A DNA stretch of 4,802 nucleotides from a virus (Duplodnaviria; Heunggongvirae; Uroviricota; Caudoviricetes). Under the pieces are notes generated by a model. The model searched no databases and was not told the DNA's origin. It worked only from the letters and a program-made list of their open reading frames with translations. Made by a program: the position numbers and the translations under genes. Positions 1 through 4,802 of the stretch are shown piece after piece (the first letter of the stretch is position 1; every line of letters starts with the position of its first letter). The stretch lies in IMG/VR virus record IMGVR_UViG_2617270946_000015; one strand, 5' to 3'.

Positions 1-2
1 CC

Positions 3-1232
3 CGTGAAATATACCGCCTGGAGCCTGAAGAAAGCTGTTGCCCGGAGTGTGGCGGTGAGCTGGATTATCTGGGGGAAGTCAGCGCAGAACAACTGGAACT
101 GGTGAGCAGCGCCCTGAAAGTGATCCGCACAGAACGGGTAAAAAAAGCCTGTACAAAATGTGACTGCATCGTTGAAGCACCGGCGCCGTCCCGCCCGATA
201 GAGCGTGGTATCGCGGGCCCCGGATTACTTGCCCGCGTGTTAACGGGAAAATACTGCGAACACCTGCCACTGTATCGTCAGAGTGAAATCTTTGCCCGAC
301 AGGGTGTCGAACTGAGCCGTGCATTACTCTCCAACTGGGTTGACGCGTGCTGCCAGTTAATGACGCCGCTGAATGATGCCCTGTACCGTTATGTGATGAA
401 TACCCGCAAGCTTCACACTGACGACACACCGGTAAAGGTACTGGCACCGGGCCTGAAAAAGACGAAAACAGGGCGCATCTGGACGTATGTCCGGGATGAT
501 CGCAATGCGGGTTCGTCATCTCCTCCGGCGGTCTGGTTCGCGTACTCATCGAACCGGCAGGGGAAACACCCGGAGCAACACCTCCGCCCCTTCCGGGGTA
601 TCCTGCAGGCGGATGCGTTCACAGGTTATGACAGGCTGTTCAGTGCAGAACGTGAAGGTAGTGCGCTGACAGAAGTTGCGTGCTGGGCTCATGCCCGGAG
701 AAAAATCCACGATGTATACATCAGCAGCAAAAGTGCGACGGCAGAAGAAGCCCTGAAGCGAATCAGTGAACTGTACGCCATCGAGGATGAAATACGGGGA
801 TTACCAGAGTCAGAGCGTCTTGCAGCCAGGCAGCAGCGAAGCAAAGCGTTACTGACGTCGCTGCATGAATGGATGGTGGAGAAGAATGGCACGCTGTCGA
901 AAAAATCCAGACTGGGCGAAGCGTTCAGCTATGTACTGAATCAGTGGGACGCCCTCTGTTATTACAGTGATGACGGTCTGGCGGAGGTGGACAATAACAC
1001 AGCGGAAAGAGCGCTTCGTGCAGTCTGTCTCGGAAAGAAAAATTACGTGTTCTTCGGTAGCGATCACGGCGGCGAGCGTGGAGCACTGCTGTACGGGCTG
1101 ATCGGCACCTGCCGTCTGAACGGTATCGATCCGGAAGCGTATCTGCGCCATATTCTGAGCGTACTGCCGGAATGGCCCTCCAACCGTGTTGACGAACTCC
1201 TGCCATGGAACGTAGTACTCACCAATAAATAA
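3..1232 (+). CDS. tnpC: IS66-family transposase (TnpC/orf3), 5'-partial; N-terminus lies upstream of the window
   Basis: Frame 3 is open from the window edge (pos 3) to TAA at 1230-1232 (410 codons); the ORF track reports it only from an internal GTG at 102. Translation from pos 3 reads ...EESCCPECGGELDYLGE...KKACTKCDCIVEAP..., a paired-cysteine zinc-finger region that I recognise as typical of IS66 TnpC, followed by a long transposase-sized body (HTDDTPVKVL, WAHARRKI, VDNNTAERALR). The stop is followed directly by an IS66-type terminus. Family assignment is from motif recall, not a search. Confidence 0.9.
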   Translation, partial: REIYRLEPEESCCPECGGELDYLGEVSAEQLELVSSALKVIRTERVKKACTKCDCIVEAPAPSRPIERGIAGPGLLARVLTGKYCEHLPLYRQSEIFARQGVELSRALLSNWVDACCQLMTPLNDALYRYVMNTRKLHTDDTPVKVLAPGLKKTKTGRIWTYVRDDRNAGSSSPPAVWFAYSSNRQGKHPEQHLRPFRGILQADAFTGYDRLFSAEREGSALTEVACWAHARRKIHDVYISSKSATAEEALKRISELYAIEDEIRGLPESERLAARQQRSKALLTSLHEWMVEKNGTLSKKSRLGEAFSYVLNQWDALCYYSDDGLAEVDNNTAERALRAVCLGKKNYVFFGSDHGGERGALLYGLIGTCRLNGIDPEAYLRHILSVLPEWPSNRVDELLPWNVVLTNK

Positions 1233-1261
1233 GCGTCAATACGGTGCTCCGTTGACGCTTA
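1230..1261. repeat. Perfect 10-bp palindrome (TAAGCGTCAA / TTGACGCTTA) with 12-nt spacer inside the IS66 terminal inverted repeat, overlapping the tnpC stop codon
   Basis: Seen directly: 1230-1239 taagcgtcaa and 1252-1261 ttgacgctta are exact reverse complements; spacer 1240-1251 tacggtgctccg. The tnpC TAA (1230-1232) lies in the left arm. Confidence 0.6.
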
Positions 1262-1262
1262 C

Positions 1263-1658: not shown

Positions 1659-2954
1659 TTAATTTTTCATTGCTTCGTTATGGGGCATGGTTGGGGCAAA
1701 CTCGCTTAACTGTGTATTTAACAAAGCTACCTGTGCATTATTGTTTTCAGACATCCATTTTCCGTATACCTGAAATACCATTTGCGCATCTGCATGGCCC
1801 ATCTGGTTTGCTATAAATGCCGGGTTAGCACCAGCTGTCAGCGACCAGCAGGCATAAGTATGTCTCGACTGATATGATTTTCGATGGCGGAGTCCGGCAC
1901 GTTTTATCGCTGCGTCCCACATCTGCCTTATTGAGTCAACGGTAAAATGGTCACCATAATTTTTTACTCTCGCTGACACTTCAGGTTGAAAAACAAAGGT
2001 GCATTTTTGTTTTTCTGTTCTGCCATACTCTCTGAGGTGAACATCAATGATATGCTCTTTGCTCAGTCTCGTTAATGTCATCTGACTCCGGAGAGCGTCG
2101 ATTGCTGGCTTAATAAGATGAATGACCCGATTGGTTCCCGCCTGTGTTTTTGGTACCGTGAAACGGTCTTTTGCTAAATTTCTCCTGATCATCATTGTTC
2201 CATTTTTCAGATCTATGTCCTCCCATCCAAGTGCACACAGCTCACCAGGGCGAACTCCAGTATAAACAGAAACACACCATAAATTTTTTGCTTGCTGATT
2301 TCTGCACGCATCGATAAGACGGATAAATTCTTCCCGCGAAAGAGGATCCGGAATGGTTCTTGATTCCTTTAATGGCGAGATCCCCTTAAACGGATTATCT
2401 GCCAGGTAACCGTTATCAACACCAAACTGGAACACGGCGTTAAGATTTGTCATGTAATTATTTACAGTTACAGCCGATCTCCCTGGTTGTGTAACAATAT
2501 AGTTACTTTTGGGGATCTGGTATCCAGTCAGTAACTCTTTACGAACCTCCAGTAATTTTTCTTTATTAATCGATGAGGCAAGATTTTTTTCACCGATTAT
2601 GCTCAGGATATTTTTGATGACGGCACGGTATGTGTTGAGTGATGTTTTGGCGACTTCAGTTTCTTTCAGTGCCAGAAATTTTTCAGCCAGTTCTTTTATG
2701 GTTAAATCTTGTCGGGCCTCACCAAATTTTTCCAGATTGCGTGAGGAGGGAAACTGTTTTGCATAGTCGAAAACACCAGTTTTTATTGCGTAACAAACAG
2801 AGGAGCGTAGTTCACCTGCAACGCGCCTGTTTTTTGCTGTGTCAGGAACCCCCAGATTTTCCCTGACTCTTACGTCTTTATAAACAAACCAGATACGTAA
2901 TTTCCCTCCATGGTTTTCCACGCCTGTCGGATATTTCATTTCAACTTCTCTCAT
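1659..2954 (-). CDS. int: Phage tyrosine integrase (site-specific recombinase) with N-terminal arm-type DNA-binding domain
   Basis: 431-codon ORF. N-terminus YPTGVENHGGKLRIWFVYKDVRVRE resembles the arm-binding domain of Rac/e14/Qin-type lambdoid integrases. The catalytic region carries VYTGVRPGEL (Arg box), ...SRHTYACWSL... (R-H) and ...MGHADAQMVFQVYGKWM (His and the Tyr nucleophile). The longest ORF starts at ATG 2954 (MREVEM...); the internal ATG at 2939 (MKYPTGVE...) is preceded by a GAGAGAAG purine tract and may be the real start. Confidence 0.93.
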   Translation of the reverse strand: MREVEMKYPTGVENHGGKLRIWFVYKDVRVRENLGVPDTAKNRRVAGELRSSVCYAIKTGVFDYAKQFPSSRNLEKFGEARQDLTIKELAEKFLALKETEVAKTSLNTYRAVIKNILSIIGEKNLASSINKEKLLEVRKELLTGYQIPKSNYIVTQPGRSAVTVNNYMTNLNAVFQFGVDNGYLADNPFKGISPLKESRTIPDPLSREEFIRLIDACRNQQAKNLWCVSVYTGVRPGELCALGWEDIDLKNGTMMIRRNLAKDRFTVPKTQAGTNRVIHLIKPAIDALRSQMTLTRLSKEHIIDVHLREYGRTEKQKCTFVFQPEVSARVKNYGDHFTVDSIRQMWDAAIKRAGLRHRKSYQSRHTYACWSLTAGANPAFIANQMGHADAQMVFQVYGKWMSENNNAQVALLNTQLSEFAPTMPHNEAMKN

Positions 2955-2973: not shown

Positions 2974-3225
2974 TCAAGTAAGATGACGTCTTGGTCTCGC
3001 TGATGCCTGGCGCTCAATCCAGCGATCAATTTCTTCCAGGTTGTAAAAGCATGGACTGTTATCCCATGGCATACCGTCATGAGCGACATGCTTATATTCC
3101 CTTCCTTCCATAAACGATTTTTCCCGGGCCTTTTTTAACGTACCTTTTTTTATTCCTTTCAGCGCAATTAACTGCTCTTCGGATACCCATTTGCCGGGAG
3201 AGACAATCATGATTACTTCGCTCAT
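2974..3225 (-). CDS. xis: Excisionase-like / small DNA-binding recombination directionality factor (putative Xis)
   Basis: 83-aa basic ORF immediately upstream of and co-directional with int (19-bp gap), the canonical xis-int arrangement. The motif ...KGTLKKAREKSFMEGREYKHVAHDGMPWDNSPCFYNLEEIDRWI... resembles the excisionase-like small proteins found next to integrases in enterobacterial prophages. Assignment is by position and motif recall, not a search. An alternative start at the second ATG (MIVSPGKW) is possible. Confidence 0.7.
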   Translation of the reverse strand: MSEVIMIVSPGKWVSEEQLIALKGIKKGTLKKAREKSFMEGREYKHVAHDGMPWDNSPCFYNLEEIDRWIERQASARPRRHLT

Positions 3226-3254
3226 CGATTTCTTTATCTCTTACATCAGACGAG

Positions 3255-3286
3255 CGCCGGTTGCAGAATACCAGTCACAACCGGCG
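3255..3286 (-). promoter_or_regulatory. Intergenic inverted repeat (9-bp arms, 14-nt spacer) between the exonuclease-domain gene and xis; possible protein-binding site or RNA hairpin
   Basis: 3255-3263 cgccggttg and 3278-3286 caaccggcg are exact reverse complements. It lies in the 72-bp gap between the stop of the upstream gene (3298) and the xis start (3225). No U-tract follows on the transcribed strand, so it is not a classic intrinsic terminator. Confidence 0.3.
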
Positions 3287-3297
3287 ACAGTTGAACA

Positions 3298-4797
3298 TTA
3301 AGAATCAGCCTGACTCGGGATCAGTTTTTGCCAGATAACTGAAACGTATTTTGCCTGGTAACGGGCGTCATCAAGTGCATTATGGCGCTCACCTTCGAAT
3401 GGAATAGCCGTTCTGGCATCGAAGTCTATGGCTTTCCCCAGCTCAACGATTGTGCGTACATCGCGATCGTTGTAGTAACGCCACGGGCAGGGGATCCCCT
3501 GCCGTTCGTATGAACGGCGCAAAATCGTGTTGTCGAAGTTGGCTCCATTTCCCCAAACCTGAACAAAAAATTCACCGGAGTTTTCGTCGATAAATTCTCG
3601 CAATTGTAACAGTGCATCATCTAACGGGATTTCATCGGTCATAATGGCAGATTGCGCTTCGCGTGATTGCTTAAGCCACCATTTAATGGTGTCCCGATCA
3701 ATGACTCCGCCAGCAGTTTCCAGATCGATAGTCTTACTAAATTCCGGTCCCATATCTCCGGTTTGCGGATCGAAAAATATTGCACCTATTGAGATGATCG
3801 GGGCATCAGGATTTTTTCCCATGGTTTCAAGGTCGATCATTAGATGGTCACACGTCCTGCTGGTGGATGTGATTTCTTGATGACCGTTCACCTTAATTGA
3901 GTGATCTGCCGTCTCGCCAGTTTCATTATCGCTATCGTGATGCTGATTGCCGCCAGTGTTCTCCTTGTGTGGATGTTCAGCGCCTTCCATTTCCTCCGGA
4001 TTATCTTCCTGAACTTCAGGCTGATACTCTTCATCGAATGTTTCCTGGTATGTTGCGTCGCCCATTACCGCGCCACAATCAGGGCAGTTGCCGCCGCCGG
4101 TCTGACCGCAGGCGGTGCAGACTTTTTCCACTTCCTGTTGCGCCACTGATTCAGGCTGTTTCGTTTCTGGCTCGTTTTGTAACGCATTTGGGCTGTTTTG
4201 TTCCGCTTTCTGGTCGTTCTGTTCCGTTTCTTGCTGGTTCTGGTTCACAGAATCGCGGGTCTGGTTCCCCTTAACCCATTTCGGATCATTCGGGTCGCTA
4301 ATCCCTTCAACAAATTCACCACGTGATACTGCAAGCAGTTCATCGGCGTCAGGCTGGCTGATATTGGCTGCCTGCATAATTTTGTTTACTTCGTCAGCGG
4401 TAACTTTTACTGACCCTGGTTGTGCGGTCGTGTCAGATGCACCAGTATTTTGTTGTGAACCTGAGTATGTACCGTTTTTGCAGGCGAAATATTCTTCTTT
4501 CGTGATTTCAGTAGCCCCAGCAGACAGCGCCTTATCCAGACCAGAAAGTTTGTTTGCGCGACCGTATTTTTCGCCATCCTTGTCGGTGAAGAGGAAGTAG
4601 AACGGCCCCTCACGTTCTACAGATGGTTCGACTTCCACTTTGCATTCGGTTTTTTCGTTGTCCGGAATTGCCGTTTCCACTGCATCAGTTTCTGGTACTG
4701 GCGACGAGAGAGTATCAGTTGCGCTCTGATTTGTTCCTTCATCTTCAAACACGCCCTTTGTAGTCAGGTATTCAGTAATGTATTTGTTCAGTGCCAC
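3298..4797 (-). CDS. Prophage multi-domain protein: N-terminal domain of unknown function, acidic Q/N/E-rich linker, C4 zinc ribbon and C-terminal DEDDh-type 3'-5' exonuclease domain
   Basis: 499-codon ORF, stop TAA at 3298-3300 (minus strand). The C-terminal ~190 aa carry the three DnaQ-like exonuclease motifs in order: Exo I D-x-E in [10 protein letters not shown], Exo II in [15 protein letters not shown], Exo III H-x4-D in [13 protein letters not shown]. Upstream is a CxxC-x10-CxxC ribbon ([16 protein letters not shown]) flanked by strongly acidic low-complexity sequence. The reported start is a GTG at 4797; the frame stays open for the 5 nt to the window edge, so the true start may lie beyond the window. 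Confidence 0.85.
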
Positions 4798-4802
4798 AGG
4801 GT

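What the first reader, a model, noticed from the sequence alone, without database searches (positions are those of the whole stretch)
3298..4802. Uncharacterised prophage fusion protein: unknown N-domain + acidic linker + zinc ribbon + intact DEDDh 3'-5' exonuclease, encoded directly upstream of xis-int
The catalytic residues of a DnaQ/oligoribonuclease-type exonuclease (D-x-E, D, H-x4-D) are all present, so the C-terminal domain is predicted to be active. It is not the PD-(D/E)XK lambda Exo or RecE core normally associated with phage recombination modules. It is fused to a C4 zinc ribbon and a ~200-aa N-terminal region with no motif I recognise ([38 protein letters not shown]). Its position, in the early-left accessory region next to int-xis, is where lambdoid phages keep variable moron, anti-defence and recombination-auxiliary genes. 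A 3'-5' exonuclease there could degrade nucleic-acid signals or intermediates (host immune signalling oligonucleotides, for example), process recombination ends, or act in superinfection exclusion. I cannot decide between these from sequence.
Basis: partly seen in the sequence, partly recalled or inferred. Interest (0 to 1): 0.62.

Follow-up and report, generated by a model that had tools for sequence, protein, structure and literature searches.

The report
Prophage RecE-like protein with DexA-type exonuclease
The finding is the last 60% of a very common E. coli prophage gene (the intact form of the K-12 pseudogene ydfE), which carries a RecE-type scaffold but ends in a T4 DexA-like 3'-5' exonuclease instead of RecE's nuclease; databases already annotate it, but nobody has tested what it does.

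Summary
The sequence features are real, but the "499-aa fusion protein" is an artefact of the window edge. The reading frame is open at base 4802, and the GTG at 4797 is an internal valine of an 822-824-aa protein. This protein is the intact form of the K-12 pseudogene ydfE. It lies in the dicB-ydfD-ydfE-xis-int early-left block of Qin/mEp460-type lambdoid prophages.

The exonuclease cassette occurs in 4069 of 5426 complete E. coli genomes. The C-terminal domain matches PF16473 (E 1e-67), and D322, E324, D422, H472 and D477 are invariant across 35 relatives. Its closest solved relative, by both sequence and fold, is the T4 DNA exonuclease DexA, not Rv2179c.

The "unknown N-domain" is not one domain. 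It consists of a helix tail, disordered linkers, a conserved 50-aa mini-domain, and a zinc-ribbon/acidic segment that is 56% identical in protein and roughly 85-90% in DNA to RecE residues 414-591. That homology stops exactly at the nuclease boundary.

YdfE-type and RecE-type N-termini each occur with either nuclease. RecT follows the one PD-(D/E)XK version examined and none of the DEDDh loci examined.

Most likely function: a stand-alone 3'-5' exonuclease, probably acting on DNA, carried on a RecE-type scaffold. The biological role is untested. The finding is ordinary to moderately interesting.

The parts
3298..4802 (-). 3' part (codons ~325-823 plus the TAA stop) of an intact ydfE-type exonuclease gene. 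The frame is open at the window edge.
   Evidence: no stop upstream of 4797; 822-aa full-length homologue at 98.9% nt identity; the K-12 ydfE pseudogene equals its first 256 aa at 98% identity.
3331..3846 (-). DEDDh 3'-5' exonuclease domain (window aa 318-489), DexA/Rv2179c-like.
   Evidence: PF16473, E 1e-67, profile positions 2-177 of 177. AF2 pLDDT 88, pTM 0.85; top PDB fold match is T4 DexA 8kel (E 2.5e-12, TM 0.72); family profile against DexA gives E 6e-24.
3826..3834 (-). Exo motif I, D322-x-E324.
   Evidence: One search gives the coordinates; invariant in 35 family members and in T2 DexA.
3532..3534 (-). Exo motif II, D422 (NFD).
3367..3384 (-). Exo motif III, H472-x4-D477.
3862..4056 (-). 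Acidic, disordered linker (aa 248-312).
   Evidence: 18 D/E against 2 K/R; pLDDT below 50; dN/dS about 1.3.
4075..4119 (-). C4 zinc ribbon, C227/C230/C238/C241, shared with RecE.
   Evidence: One search gives the coordinates; conserved in K-12 RecE; two short strands, pLDDT about 70; dN/dS about 0.1.
3896..4345 (-). Mosaic segment shared with recE of the Rac prophage (RecE aa ~455-591). Homology ends abruptly just before the nuclease domain.
   Evidence: DNA alignment, one 42-nt indel, sharp end of homology; my estimate is roughly 85-90% identity over this stretch (the tool reports 82% mean column identity for the whole 599-column alignment); 56% aa identity over RecE 414-591.
4465..4617 (-). 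Conserved ~50-aa beta-hairpin/helix mini-domain (aa 61-111, 'GPFYFLF...'). It is found on YdfE-type scaffolds whatever the C-terminal nuclease and is absent from K-12 RecE.
   Evidence: pLDDT 87-94; present in 12 representatives carrying different C-termini; dN/dS 0.04-0.29; no Pfam or PDB relative.
4753..4802 (-). Last helix of a helical domain (full-length aa 245-343) that is cut by the window edge.
   Evidence: helix 324-338, pLDDT above 90.
2974..3225 (-). Excisionase, the next gene on the same strand.
   Evidence: PF06806, E 1.6e-31.
1659..2954 (-). Tyrosine integrase, the last gene of the block.
   Evidence: PF12167 + PF00589.

Best explanation
The finding is the C-terminal 60% of the intact ydfE gene of a Qin/mEp460-type lambdoid prophage. 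It lies between dicB-ydfD and xis-int on one strand, as in K-12, where the dicB promoter can read through ydfD and ydfE into intQ.

The protein is modular. Off-window lie the YdfE_N and YdfE_C domains and most of a helical domain. In the window are the end of that helical domain, a linker, a 50-aa mini-domain, a RecE-shared helix/zinc-ribbon/acidic-linker segment, and a DexA-type DEDDh domain.

Shown by sequence and fold: the domain has all five DEDDh residues. Inferred: D322, E324, D422 and D477 hold two Mg2+ ions and H472 acts as general base, removing nucleotides one at a time from a free 3'-OH end. Inferred from the nearest relatives: the substrate is probably DNA.

The gene occupies the place that recE-recT holds in Rac. 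The scaffold is the RecE one, but the PD-(D/E)XK 5'-3' nuclease and RecT have together been replaced by the 3'-5' nuclease. It therefore acts as a stand-alone end-degrading nuclease, not as half of a two-component recombinase. The scaffold probably provides targeting or oligomerisation; this is inferred, because its function is also unknown in RecE. The biological role is not settled. Candidates are phage DNA metabolism or competition at induction, and exclusion of other phages.
For: Identity and length.

Operon context:
- dicB-ydfD-exonuclease-xis-int in L001, L002, L005 and L040.
- 70 of 80 IMG/VR loci have DicB upstream and 71 of 80 have YdfD.
- K-12 transcription from the dicB promoter through ydfD and ydfE is described in bioRxiv 10.1101/2024.09.21.614188.

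Active DEDDh domain:
- PF16473, E 1e-67.
- The five catalytic residues are invariant in 35 homologues and in DexA.
- dN/dS is 0.16-0.21.
- The model is confident.

A DNA enzyme is the closest relative:
- T4 DexA is the only PDB sequence hit and the top fold hit.
- E. coli EcD, 38% identical and in the same Pfam family, degrades T4 DNA (PMC12153337).

RecE scaffold:
- NF007259 matches full-length aa 237-624.
- BLASTP against K-12 RecE gives E 3e-60.
- The DNA-level mosaic junction lies at the nuclease boundary.

Module swapping:
- YdfE-N + DEDDh, RecE-N + DEDDh (P0121, 640R1), RecE-N + PD-(D/E)XK, and YdfE-N + PD-(D/E)XK all exist.

No SSAP partner:
- RecT overlaps the end of the PD-(D/E)XK version P0193.
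- RecT is absent from 0 of 80 DEDDh loci within 3 kb, and from L001, L002, L005 and L006.
Against: - There is no biochemical or genetic experiment on this protein.
- DEDDh enzymes of this fold include RNases (RNase T, Orn and REXO2 follow DexA), and Pfam names the family after an RNase. The DNA preference rests on nearest-neighbour inference at 25-38% identity.
- The scaffold's role is unknown even for RecE (PMC11611040).
- A 3'-5' nuclease without an annealing partner has no obvious job in lambdoid development.
Confidence: 0.6

Rival explanations
1. Prophage-encoded exclusion or defence nuclease of the HREX kind. Like E. coli EcD, the DexA-like domain would selectively degrade incoming modified (5hmC-type) DNA of T-even phages, or other foreign linear DNA. 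This would protect the lysogen or the induced cell.
For: - EcD is a DexA homologue of the same Pfam family, 38% identical to this domain (E 2e-37). It degrades T4 DNA and protects E. coli even at leaky expression (PMC12153337).
- The cassette is kept in 4069 of 5426 genomes, at 99% identity or more in 3048 records, often in defective prophages, and under purifying selection.
- It is co-located with dicB. From my own recollection, not checked here, DicB has been reported to protect against some phages.
- The authors note that K-12 lacks DexA homologues, which fits ydfE being truncated there.
Against: - The residue aligned with DexA W152 (5hmC stacking) is Tyr here, but Trp in EcD and in the 1720a-02 homologue.
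- The D169 equivalent cannot be placed.
- Asp is retained at the D90 position, which EcD has lost.
- EcD is a stand-alone 189-aa protein, not an 823-aa RecE-like protein.
- In K-12 this gene block is described as under DicA control (repression in the lysogen is my inference from that).
- PADLOC has no specific model, only a generic DEDDh hit at E 1.5e-5.
Confidence: 0.2
2. Recombination or repair accessory. The RecE-type scaffold would bring the 3'-5' nuclease to double-strand ends to trim 3' tails or flaps during phage recombination or replication, working with host RecA/RecFOR or an unlinked annealing protein.
For: - It occupies the same genomic slot and has the same scaffold as RecE.
- Full-length RecE's N-terminal part enhances linear-linear recombination (PMC11611040).
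- T4 DexA takes part in intron homing by processing DNA ends (PMC12153337 abstract).
Against: - No RecT was found in any of the 80 loci, or in four annotated prophages and phages.
- 3'-5' resection destroys the 3' tails that RecA and annealing proteins use.
- The version that keeps a 5'-3' nuclease also keeps RecT. The swap therefore removed the recombinase as a unit.
Confidence: 0.12
3. An RNA 3'-5' exonuclease, as in Rv2179c or ISG20/TONDO-like enzymes. It would trim host or competitor RNAs, for example RNA-phage genomes or regulatory RNAs such as the co-transcribed DicF.
For: - The Pfam family is named after the exoribonuclease Rv2179c.
- NCBI names many copies '3'-5' exoribonuclease'.
- RNase T, Orn and REXO2 are the next-best fold matches.
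- DEDDh proteins with auxiliary domains on mobile elements defend against RNA phages (bioRxiv 10.64898/2026.06.30.735675).
Against: - Neither the single sequence nor the family profile finds Rv2179c among solved structures at E 0.001 or better. DexA, a DNase, scores 6e-24.
- The RecE scaffold points to DNA ends.
- The TONDO set was drawn from ISG20-like clades and proteins under 500 aa. Relatedness to this protein was not shown.
Confidence: 0.06
4. One reading: an anti-defence enzyme that destroys host immune signalling oligonucleotides.
For: Only the position in the variable early-left region supports it.
Against: - DEDDh chemistry needs a free 3'-OH, so cyclic signals are not substrates. This is established enzymology, not tested here.
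- The nearest characterised relatives act on long DNA (PMC12153337).
- An 823-aa RecE-like scaffold is unexplained by this idea.
- No known anti-defence family matched.
Confidence: 0.02

Closest known systems
RecE (exonuclease VIII) of the Rac prophage, E. coli K-12 b1350
   Same: - Same genomic slot, in the early-left operon just upstream of xis-int.
- Large multi-module protein.
- Window aa 115-301 align to RecE 414-591 at 56% identity. This stretch includes the SRGEFV(E/D)[13 protein letters not shown] motif, the C4 zinc ribbon and the acidic linker.
- The DNA is roughly 85-90% identical from about aa 152.
- The NCBIfam RecE model also matches further upstream.
- The function of this part is unknown in RecE too (PMC11611040).
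   Different: - The C-terminal nuclease is a DEDDh 3'-5' domain, not RecE's PD-(D/E)XK 5'-3' domain.
- There is no RecT next door.
- The N-terminus is YdfE_N/YdfE_C rather than PF06630 in this lineage.
- There is an extra 50-aa mini-domain.
- The NF007259 score is 266 against a cutoff of 1269.
Bacteriophage T4/T2 DexA (exonuclease A; PDB 8KEL, 8KEN)
   Same: - It is the best and only PDB sequence hit (E 1.7e-6 with the single sequence, 6e-24 with the family profile).
- It is the best fold hit (TM 0.72).
- All five DEDDh residues align.
   Different: - Only 27% identical.
- DexA is a stand-alone 227-aa protein of a virulent phage, with extra loops.
- W152 aligns with Tyr here.
- The quaternary-switch residues are only half conserved: S87 aligns with Pro, while D90 stays Asp.
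EcD, the E. coli 'HREX' DexA homologue (GenBank HAK9828821.1; Kang et al., NAR 2025, PMC12153337)
   Same: - Same Pfam family, PF16473.
- 38% identical over 183 aa.
- Catalytic residues are identical.
- Encoded in E. coli; close copies occur on IMG/VR viral contigs.
   Different: - EcD is a stand-alone 189-193-aa protein.
- It has Trp at the 5hmC-stacking position and Ala at D90, where this protein has Tyr and Asp.
- I reconstructed the EcD sequence from the paper's primers and its 'A78' statement. It was not taken from the accession, so the identification is an inference.
YdfE of E. coli K-12 (b1577, Qin prophage pseudogene)
   Same: It is the same gene. K-12 YdfE residues 1-256 are 98% identical to the start of the full-length protein, and the dicB-ydfD neighbours are the same.
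   Different: The K-12 copy is cut by IS2 after codon 256. It therefore lacks everything present in this window, including the nuclease.
Rv2179c of Mycobacterium tuberculosis (name-giver of PF16473)
   Same: Same Pfam family by HMM.
   Different: It was not detected among solved structures by sequence or family profile at E 0.001 or better, and it is not in the top 50 fold hits. It is an RNase, and substrate transfer to this protein is unsupported.
Stand-alone 190-aa homologue in the ea region of Stx phage 1720a-02
   Same: 60% identical DEDDh domain, PF16473 at E 3.6e-75, in a lambdoid accessory region.
   Different: It has no scaffold, and it keeps Trp at the DexA W152 position.

Membership tests
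DEDDh (DnaQ-like) 3'-5' exonuclease superfamily | Three Exo motifs supplying D, E, D, D and a His general base. | tested here: met
   D322, E324, D422, H472 and D477 are invariant in a 35-sequence family alignment and align with T2 DexA D7, E9, D119, H186 and D191.
DEDDh (DnaQ-like) 3'-5' exonuclease superfamily | RNase H-like alpha/beta fold. | tested here: met
   AF2 model with pLDDT 88 and pTM 0.85. Foldseek probability 1.00 to DexA, RNase T, Orn and REXO2.
DEDDh (DnaQ-like) 3'-5' exonuclease superfamily | Metal-dependent 3'-5' exonuclease activity. | not testable with these tools
   Needs an enzyme assay.
Pfam PF16473 (Rv2179c-like) | Score above the gathering threshold over the whole model. 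| tested here: met
   227.7 bits against 27; profile positions 2-177 of 177.
Pfam PF16473 (Rv2179c-like) | Exoribonuclease substrate preference, as in Rv2179c. | not testable with these tools
   Rv2179c itself was not recovered by PDB sequence or profile search.
DexA / HREX (5hmC-recognising exonucleases, PMC12153337) | Homology to DexA. | tested here: met
   Profile E 6e-24 and top fold hit.
DexA / HREX (5hmC-recognising exonucleases, PMC12153337) | Trp equivalent to DexA W152 (stacks on 5hmC). | tested here: not met
   It aligns with Tyr (WRYYNDRD). EcD, 1720a-02 and P0246 have Trp.
DexA / HREX (5hmC-recognising exonucleases, PMC12153337) | Acidic residue equivalent to DexA D169. | tested here: inconclusive
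   The position falls in a gapped loop of the alignment. An Asp lies two residues away.
DexA / HREX (5hmC-recognising exonucleases, PMC12153337) | Loss of D90 (dimer-locked, host-DNA-sparing form, as in EcD). | tested here: not met
   Asp is retained at the aligned position. EcD has Ala78.
DexA / HREX (5hmC-recognising exonucleases, PMC12153337) | Protection against T4 and selective cleavage of 5hmC DNA. | not testable with these tools
   Needs an experiment.
RecE / exodeoxyribonuclease VIII | NCBIfam NF007259 equivalog score above the cutoff. | tested here: not met
   265.7 bits against 1269; only profile positions 260-602 of 877 match.
RecE / exodeoxyribonuclease VIII | C-terminal PD-(D/E)XK 5'-3' nuclease domain. 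| tested here: not met
   BLASTP homology to RecE stops at residue 591. The C-terminus is PF16473.
RecE / exodeoxyribonuclease VIII | Adjacent RecT annealing protein. | tested here: not met
   xis follows directly in the window. 0 of 80 related loci have RecT within 3 kb. The positive control P0193 has RecT.
RecE / exodeoxyribonuclease VIII | Shared middle region: SRGEF motif, zinc ribbon, acidic linker. | tested here: met
   56% aa identity over window aa 115-301. The DNA alignment shows high identity and a sharp mosaic junction.
Lambda Exo / YqaJ-type recombination exonucleases | PD-(D/E)XK YqaJ domain. | tested here: not met
   No such Pfam hit at E 1 or better.
Known anti-phage defence systems (PADLOC-DB 2.0) | A match to a system-specific model. 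| tested here: not met
   Only the generic Cas-associated DEDDh model matched, at E 1.5e-5.

The most novel reading that the evidence does not exclude
The RecE/YdfE N-terminal scaffold would be a general platform for targeting DNA ends, or for binding a partner, onto which enterobacterial prophages plug interchangeable effector modules. At least four C-terminal types were seen: DEDDh 3'-5', PD-(D/E)XK 5'-3' with RecT, a phrog_7838 'exonuclease' followed by a Gp157-like gene, and a phrog_26058 module. On this reading, the DEDDh version, carried by three-quarters of E. coli genomes, would be a widespread and unrecognised prophage exclusion nuclease related to EcD/HREX, not a recombination enzyme.
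Probability: 0.2. Interest if true: 0.6.

Novelty: new member of a known kind. Interest (0 to 1): 0.35.

Why it matters
This gene is one of the commonest prophage genes in E. coli. The nuclease cassette is in 75% of complete genomes, with up to 7 copies, yet it has no tested function. It is missing from K-12, where an IS2 insertion destroyed it, which may be why it was never studied.

Its chimeric relation to RecE bears on an old loose end: what the dispensable N-terminal two-thirds of RecE does. Nature has fused the same scaffold to nucleases of opposite polarity, so the scaffold's role must be independent of 5'-3' resection and of RecT.

If the DexA-like domain behaves like EcD, many E. coli strains would carry a built-in nuclease active against T-even phages. 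That would be relevant to phage therapy host range.

On present evidence, though, it is an annotated, ordinary-looking prophage exonuclease of unknown role.

Tried and rejected
- A search for a documented function found nothing on this protein: papers with ydfE+Qin, ydfE+exonuclease, dicBF+ydfE, PF16473, Rv2179c+phage, RecE+DEDDh+prophage.
- In the full-length AF2 run the DEDDh domain was poorly modelled because the MSA was shallow there. I redid it with a 35-sequence family MSA.
- The search for related loci for diverse DEDDh homologues returned only near-identical E. coli prophage copies. These were useless for MSA depth but served for the context statistics.
- The exact reverse primer of EcD was not found in the candidate loci. 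It differs by one base from the 3' end of the 189-aa gene, so EcD's identity rests on the start, the length, A78 and that near-match.
- PDB sequence searches of the other C-terminal modules (P0171, P0166) found nothing.
- Rfam found no RNA family in the window.
- No promoter-like or terminator-like site was found between the exonuclease gene and xis.
- I considered and rejected the TONDO protein EcTon as the same protein. EcTon is on IncF-like plasmids and was selected from candidates under 500 aa drawn from ISG20-like clades.
- I rejected 'exodeoxyribonuclease VIII' as a correct name. Several phage records use it, but it comes from the shared scaffold only.
Full report

Yes for the features, no for the protein boundaries.
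- A minus-strand frame runs from the TAA at 3298-3300 to the window edge.
- It contains the motifs [17 protein letters not shown] and HNALDDA, so the DEDDh residues are D322, E324, D422, H472 and D477.
- It contains a C-x2-C-x7-C-x2-C knuckle at aa 227-241 and an acidic stretch at aa 248-312, with 18 D/E against 2 K/R.
- An excisionase (PF06806) and a tyrosine integrase follow on the same strand.
- The frame is not closed upstream. Bases 4798-4800 read CCT, so the GTG 'start' at 4797 is an internal valine.
- DNA 98.9% identical in E. coli HCP5S3_I4 belongs to a 2469-nt gene encoding 822 aa, annotated '3'-5' exonuclease'. Phage mEp460 has an 823-aa version.
- The window holds roughly residues 325-823.

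**2. What gene is it?**

- The first 256 residues of the full-length protein are 98% identical to the K-12 pseudogene ydfE (b1577), which IS2 truncates. The finding is therefore the part of intact ydfE that K-12 has lost.
- The neighbourhood is dicB - ydfD - [this gene] - xis - int in E. coli chromosomes and in phages mEp460, Tritos and vB_EcoS-640R1.
- 70 of 80 IMG/VR loci have DicB upstream and 71 of 80 have YdfD.
- In K-12 a promoter upstream of dicB can transcribe dicB, ydfD and on through ydfE (bioRxiv 10.1101/2024.09.21.614188).
- The gene is extremely common. The 567-nt nuclease cassette occurs in 4069 of 5426 complete E. coli genomes (8098 places, up to 7 per genome), at 99% identity or more in 3048 records.
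- The 1603-nt query (window 3200-4802) is covered 80% or more in 3607 genomes.
- Databases already catalogue it: PHROG 2082 'exonuclease' end to end, and Pfam YdfE_N (PF27430) and YdfE_C (PF27432) on the off-window N-terminus.

**3. Anatomy**

An AlphaFold2 model of the 823-aa representative P0005, built with a 32-sequence MSA, gives these confident blocks:
- 1-205 (YdfE_N/YdfE_C).
- 245-343 (helical).
- 385-435, a small hairpin-hairpin-helix-strand-helix unit with pLDDT 87-94.
- A two-strand zinc ribbon at 548-571 (pLDDT about 70).
- The segments between these blocks have pLDDT below 50.

- aa 1-15: the last helix of the helical domain.
- aa 20-60: disordered.
- aa 61-111: the mini-domain that carries 'GPFYFLF...'.
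- About aa 134-158: two short helices, running into the SRGEF motif (aa 158-177).
- About aa 176-223: a Q/N/E-rich disordered stretch.
- aa 227-241: the zinc ribbon.
- aa 248-312: the acidic linker.

**4.

- NCBIfam's RecE model matches full-length residues 237-624, far below its cutoff.
- BLASTP against K-12 RecE aligns window aa 115-301 with RecE 414-591 at 56% identity (E 3e-60). This stretch includes SRGEFV(E/D)[13 protein letters not shown], the zinc ribbon and the acidic linker.
- At DNA level the two genes are highly similar over about 430 nt, with one 42-nt indel. I estimate roughly 85-90% identity there; the tool reports 82% mean column identity for the whole 599-column alignment. The similarity stops abruptly just before the nuclease domains. 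This is a classic mosaic junction at a domain boundary.
- An exhaustive HMMER search with window aa 1-310 found only 102 clusters (at 50% identity) in 1.8 billion proteins.
- Mapping modules on the long hits shows every combination:
 - YdfE-N + DEDDh (this gene).
 - RecE-N (PF06630) + DEDDh (P0121 in a Rac-like prophage; phage 640R1).
 - RecE-N + PD-(D/E)XK (RecE).
 - YdfE-N + PD-(D/E)XK/DUF3799 (P0182, P0185, P0193).
- Two further C-terminal modules exist: phrog_7838 and the C-terminal part of phrog_26058.
- The partner gene tracks the nuclease. RecT overlaps the end of the PD-(D/E)XK version. A Gp157-like gene follows the phrog_7838 version. The DEDDh versions are followed directly by xis-int, with no RecT in 0 of 80 loci.

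**5. The nuclease domain**

- Pfam PF16473 matches at E 1e-67 over the whole model.
- The five catalytic residues are invariant across 35 homologues at 32-83% identity.
- A dedicated AF2 model is confident, with pLDDT 88 and pTM 0.85.
- Its best PDB fold match is T4 DexA (8kel; E 2.5e-12, TM 0.72), ahead of RNase T, Orn and REXO2.
- By sequence, DexA is the only solved relative: E 1.7e-6 with the single sequence and 6e-24 with the family profile. Rv2179c, the RNase that gives the Pfam family its name, is not recovered. The widespread label 'exoribonuclease' is therefore inherited, not tested.
- tblastn finds homologues of the domain in 1293 phage records, mostly as stand-alone ~180-230-aa 'exonuclease' genes. 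One is a 60%-identical copy next to EaA in Stx phage 1720a-02.

**6. A characterised E. coli relative**

- Kang et al. (NAR 2025, PMC12153337) show that T4 DexA switches between tetramer and dimer to cut unmodified or 5hmC DNA.
- They also show that an E. coli homologue, EcD, cuts only 5hmC DNA and protects against T4.
- I reconstructed EcD from their primers and their 'A78' statement. It is a 189-aa protein (MIDTETLG...TPFLNI) present on IMG/VR contigs and in a 614-member E. coli cluster.
- EcD belongs to PF16473 and is 38% identical to the domain here (E 2e-37).
- The HREX-specific residues are not all present here:
 - DexA W152 aligns with Tyr, where EcD has Trp.
 - D90 stays Asp, where EcD has Ala.
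 - D169 falls in a gapped loop.
- So this protein is a relative of EcD, not a demonstrable HREX member.

**7. Most likely mechanism**

Shown:
- The DEDDh active site is intact and under selection.
- The nearest relatives are DNases.
- The scaffold is the RecE one.
- There is no SSAP partner.

Inferred:
- The protein removes nucleotides from free 3'-OH ends by two-metal catalysis, most probably on DNA.
- The RecE-type scaffold and zinc ribbon, joined by flexible linkers, provide targeting or assembly.
- It works alone rather than as a recombinase half.

I give this 0.6. The rivals are:
- HREX-like exclusion of modified phage DNA: 0.2.
- End-trimming accessory for recombination: 0.12.
- RNA exonuclease: 0.06.

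The last has no support, and it conflicts with the need for a free 3'-OH and with the substrates of the nearest relatives.

**8. Novelty and verdict**

- The gene is real, intact as far as the window shows, and under selection. It is also ubiquitous and already annotated.
- It passes the membership tests for DEDDh/PF16473. It fails those for RecE (nuclease type, RecT partner, model cutoff) and for a strict HREX enzyme.
- No experimental study of it was found.
- I file it as a new, uncharacterised member of the DexA/PF16473 exonucleases that carries a RecE-type scaffold.
- Interest is modest at 0.35. What lifts it above routine is its prevalence, its absence from K-12, and what the natural nuclease swaps imply about the unexplained N-terminal part of RecE.

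Noticed in passing
window 3-1232 (+), boundary at about 1262/1263: An IS66-family transposase reading frame (PF03050 + PF13817) is open to the left window edge. Window 1-1262 does not match the rspB-side chromosome that flanks this prophage in reference genomes, where homology starts at 1263. An IS66 element therefore abuts the integrase end of the prophage.
   Followed up: partly
window 3255-3286 (-): A GC-rich stem of 9-10 bp with a 12-14-nt loop sits about 10 nt after the exonuclease stop codon and before xis. It has no U-run. MFE is -19.7 kcal/mol and the z-score only -1.8. No terminator or promoter consensus was found. Its function, if any, is unknown.
   Followed up: partly
window 4084-4104 (-), inside the zinc ribbon: The glycine run between the two Cys pairs varies in length and sequence between copies: GGGN here, GGN in HCP5S3_I4, GGDN in K-12 RecE. 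The knuckle spacing therefore tolerates 7-8 residues.
   Followed up: no
window 3862-4056 (-) against the rest of the gene: The acidic linker evolves at dN/dS of about 1.3. The nuclease, the mini-domain and the zinc ribbon are under purifying selection. Divergence between phages is patchy along the gene. For example, Tritos has an identical nuclease protein but dN of 0.28 in aa 1-60, which indicates intragenic mosaicism.
   Followed up: yes
L008/L009 5001-7927; L010 5001-7109; P0162, P0171, P0220, P0207, P0166: YdfE/RecE scaffolds also carry two other C-terminal modules with no Pfam or PDB match. One is phrog_7838 'exonuclease', followed by an overlapping Sipho_Gp157-like gene. The other is the C-terminal part of phrog_26058, followed by xis-int. 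These may be further effector types on the same scaffold.
   Followed up: partly
P0157 (703 aa): A protein with the first 260 aa identical to K-12 RecE is fused directly to a RecT domain (PF03837 at 528-678). This is either a deletion that joins recE-N to recT or an assembly or annotation artefact.
   Followed up: no
L012 3498-4070 (phage 1720a-02); one search list: Stand-alone PF16473 exonucleases occur in 1293 phage records across Escherichia, Vibrio, Pseudomonas, Acinetobacter, Bacillus and other hosts. The family is annotated inconsistently: exonuclease, exonuclease I, exodeoxyribonuclease VIII, RNase H-like, hypothetical.
   Followed up: partly
window 1659-2954 (-): The longest integrase ORF starts at ATG 2954 (MREVEMKYPTG...). 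Reference annotations give a 1281-nt gene, which implies the downstream Met at about 2939.
   Followed up: no
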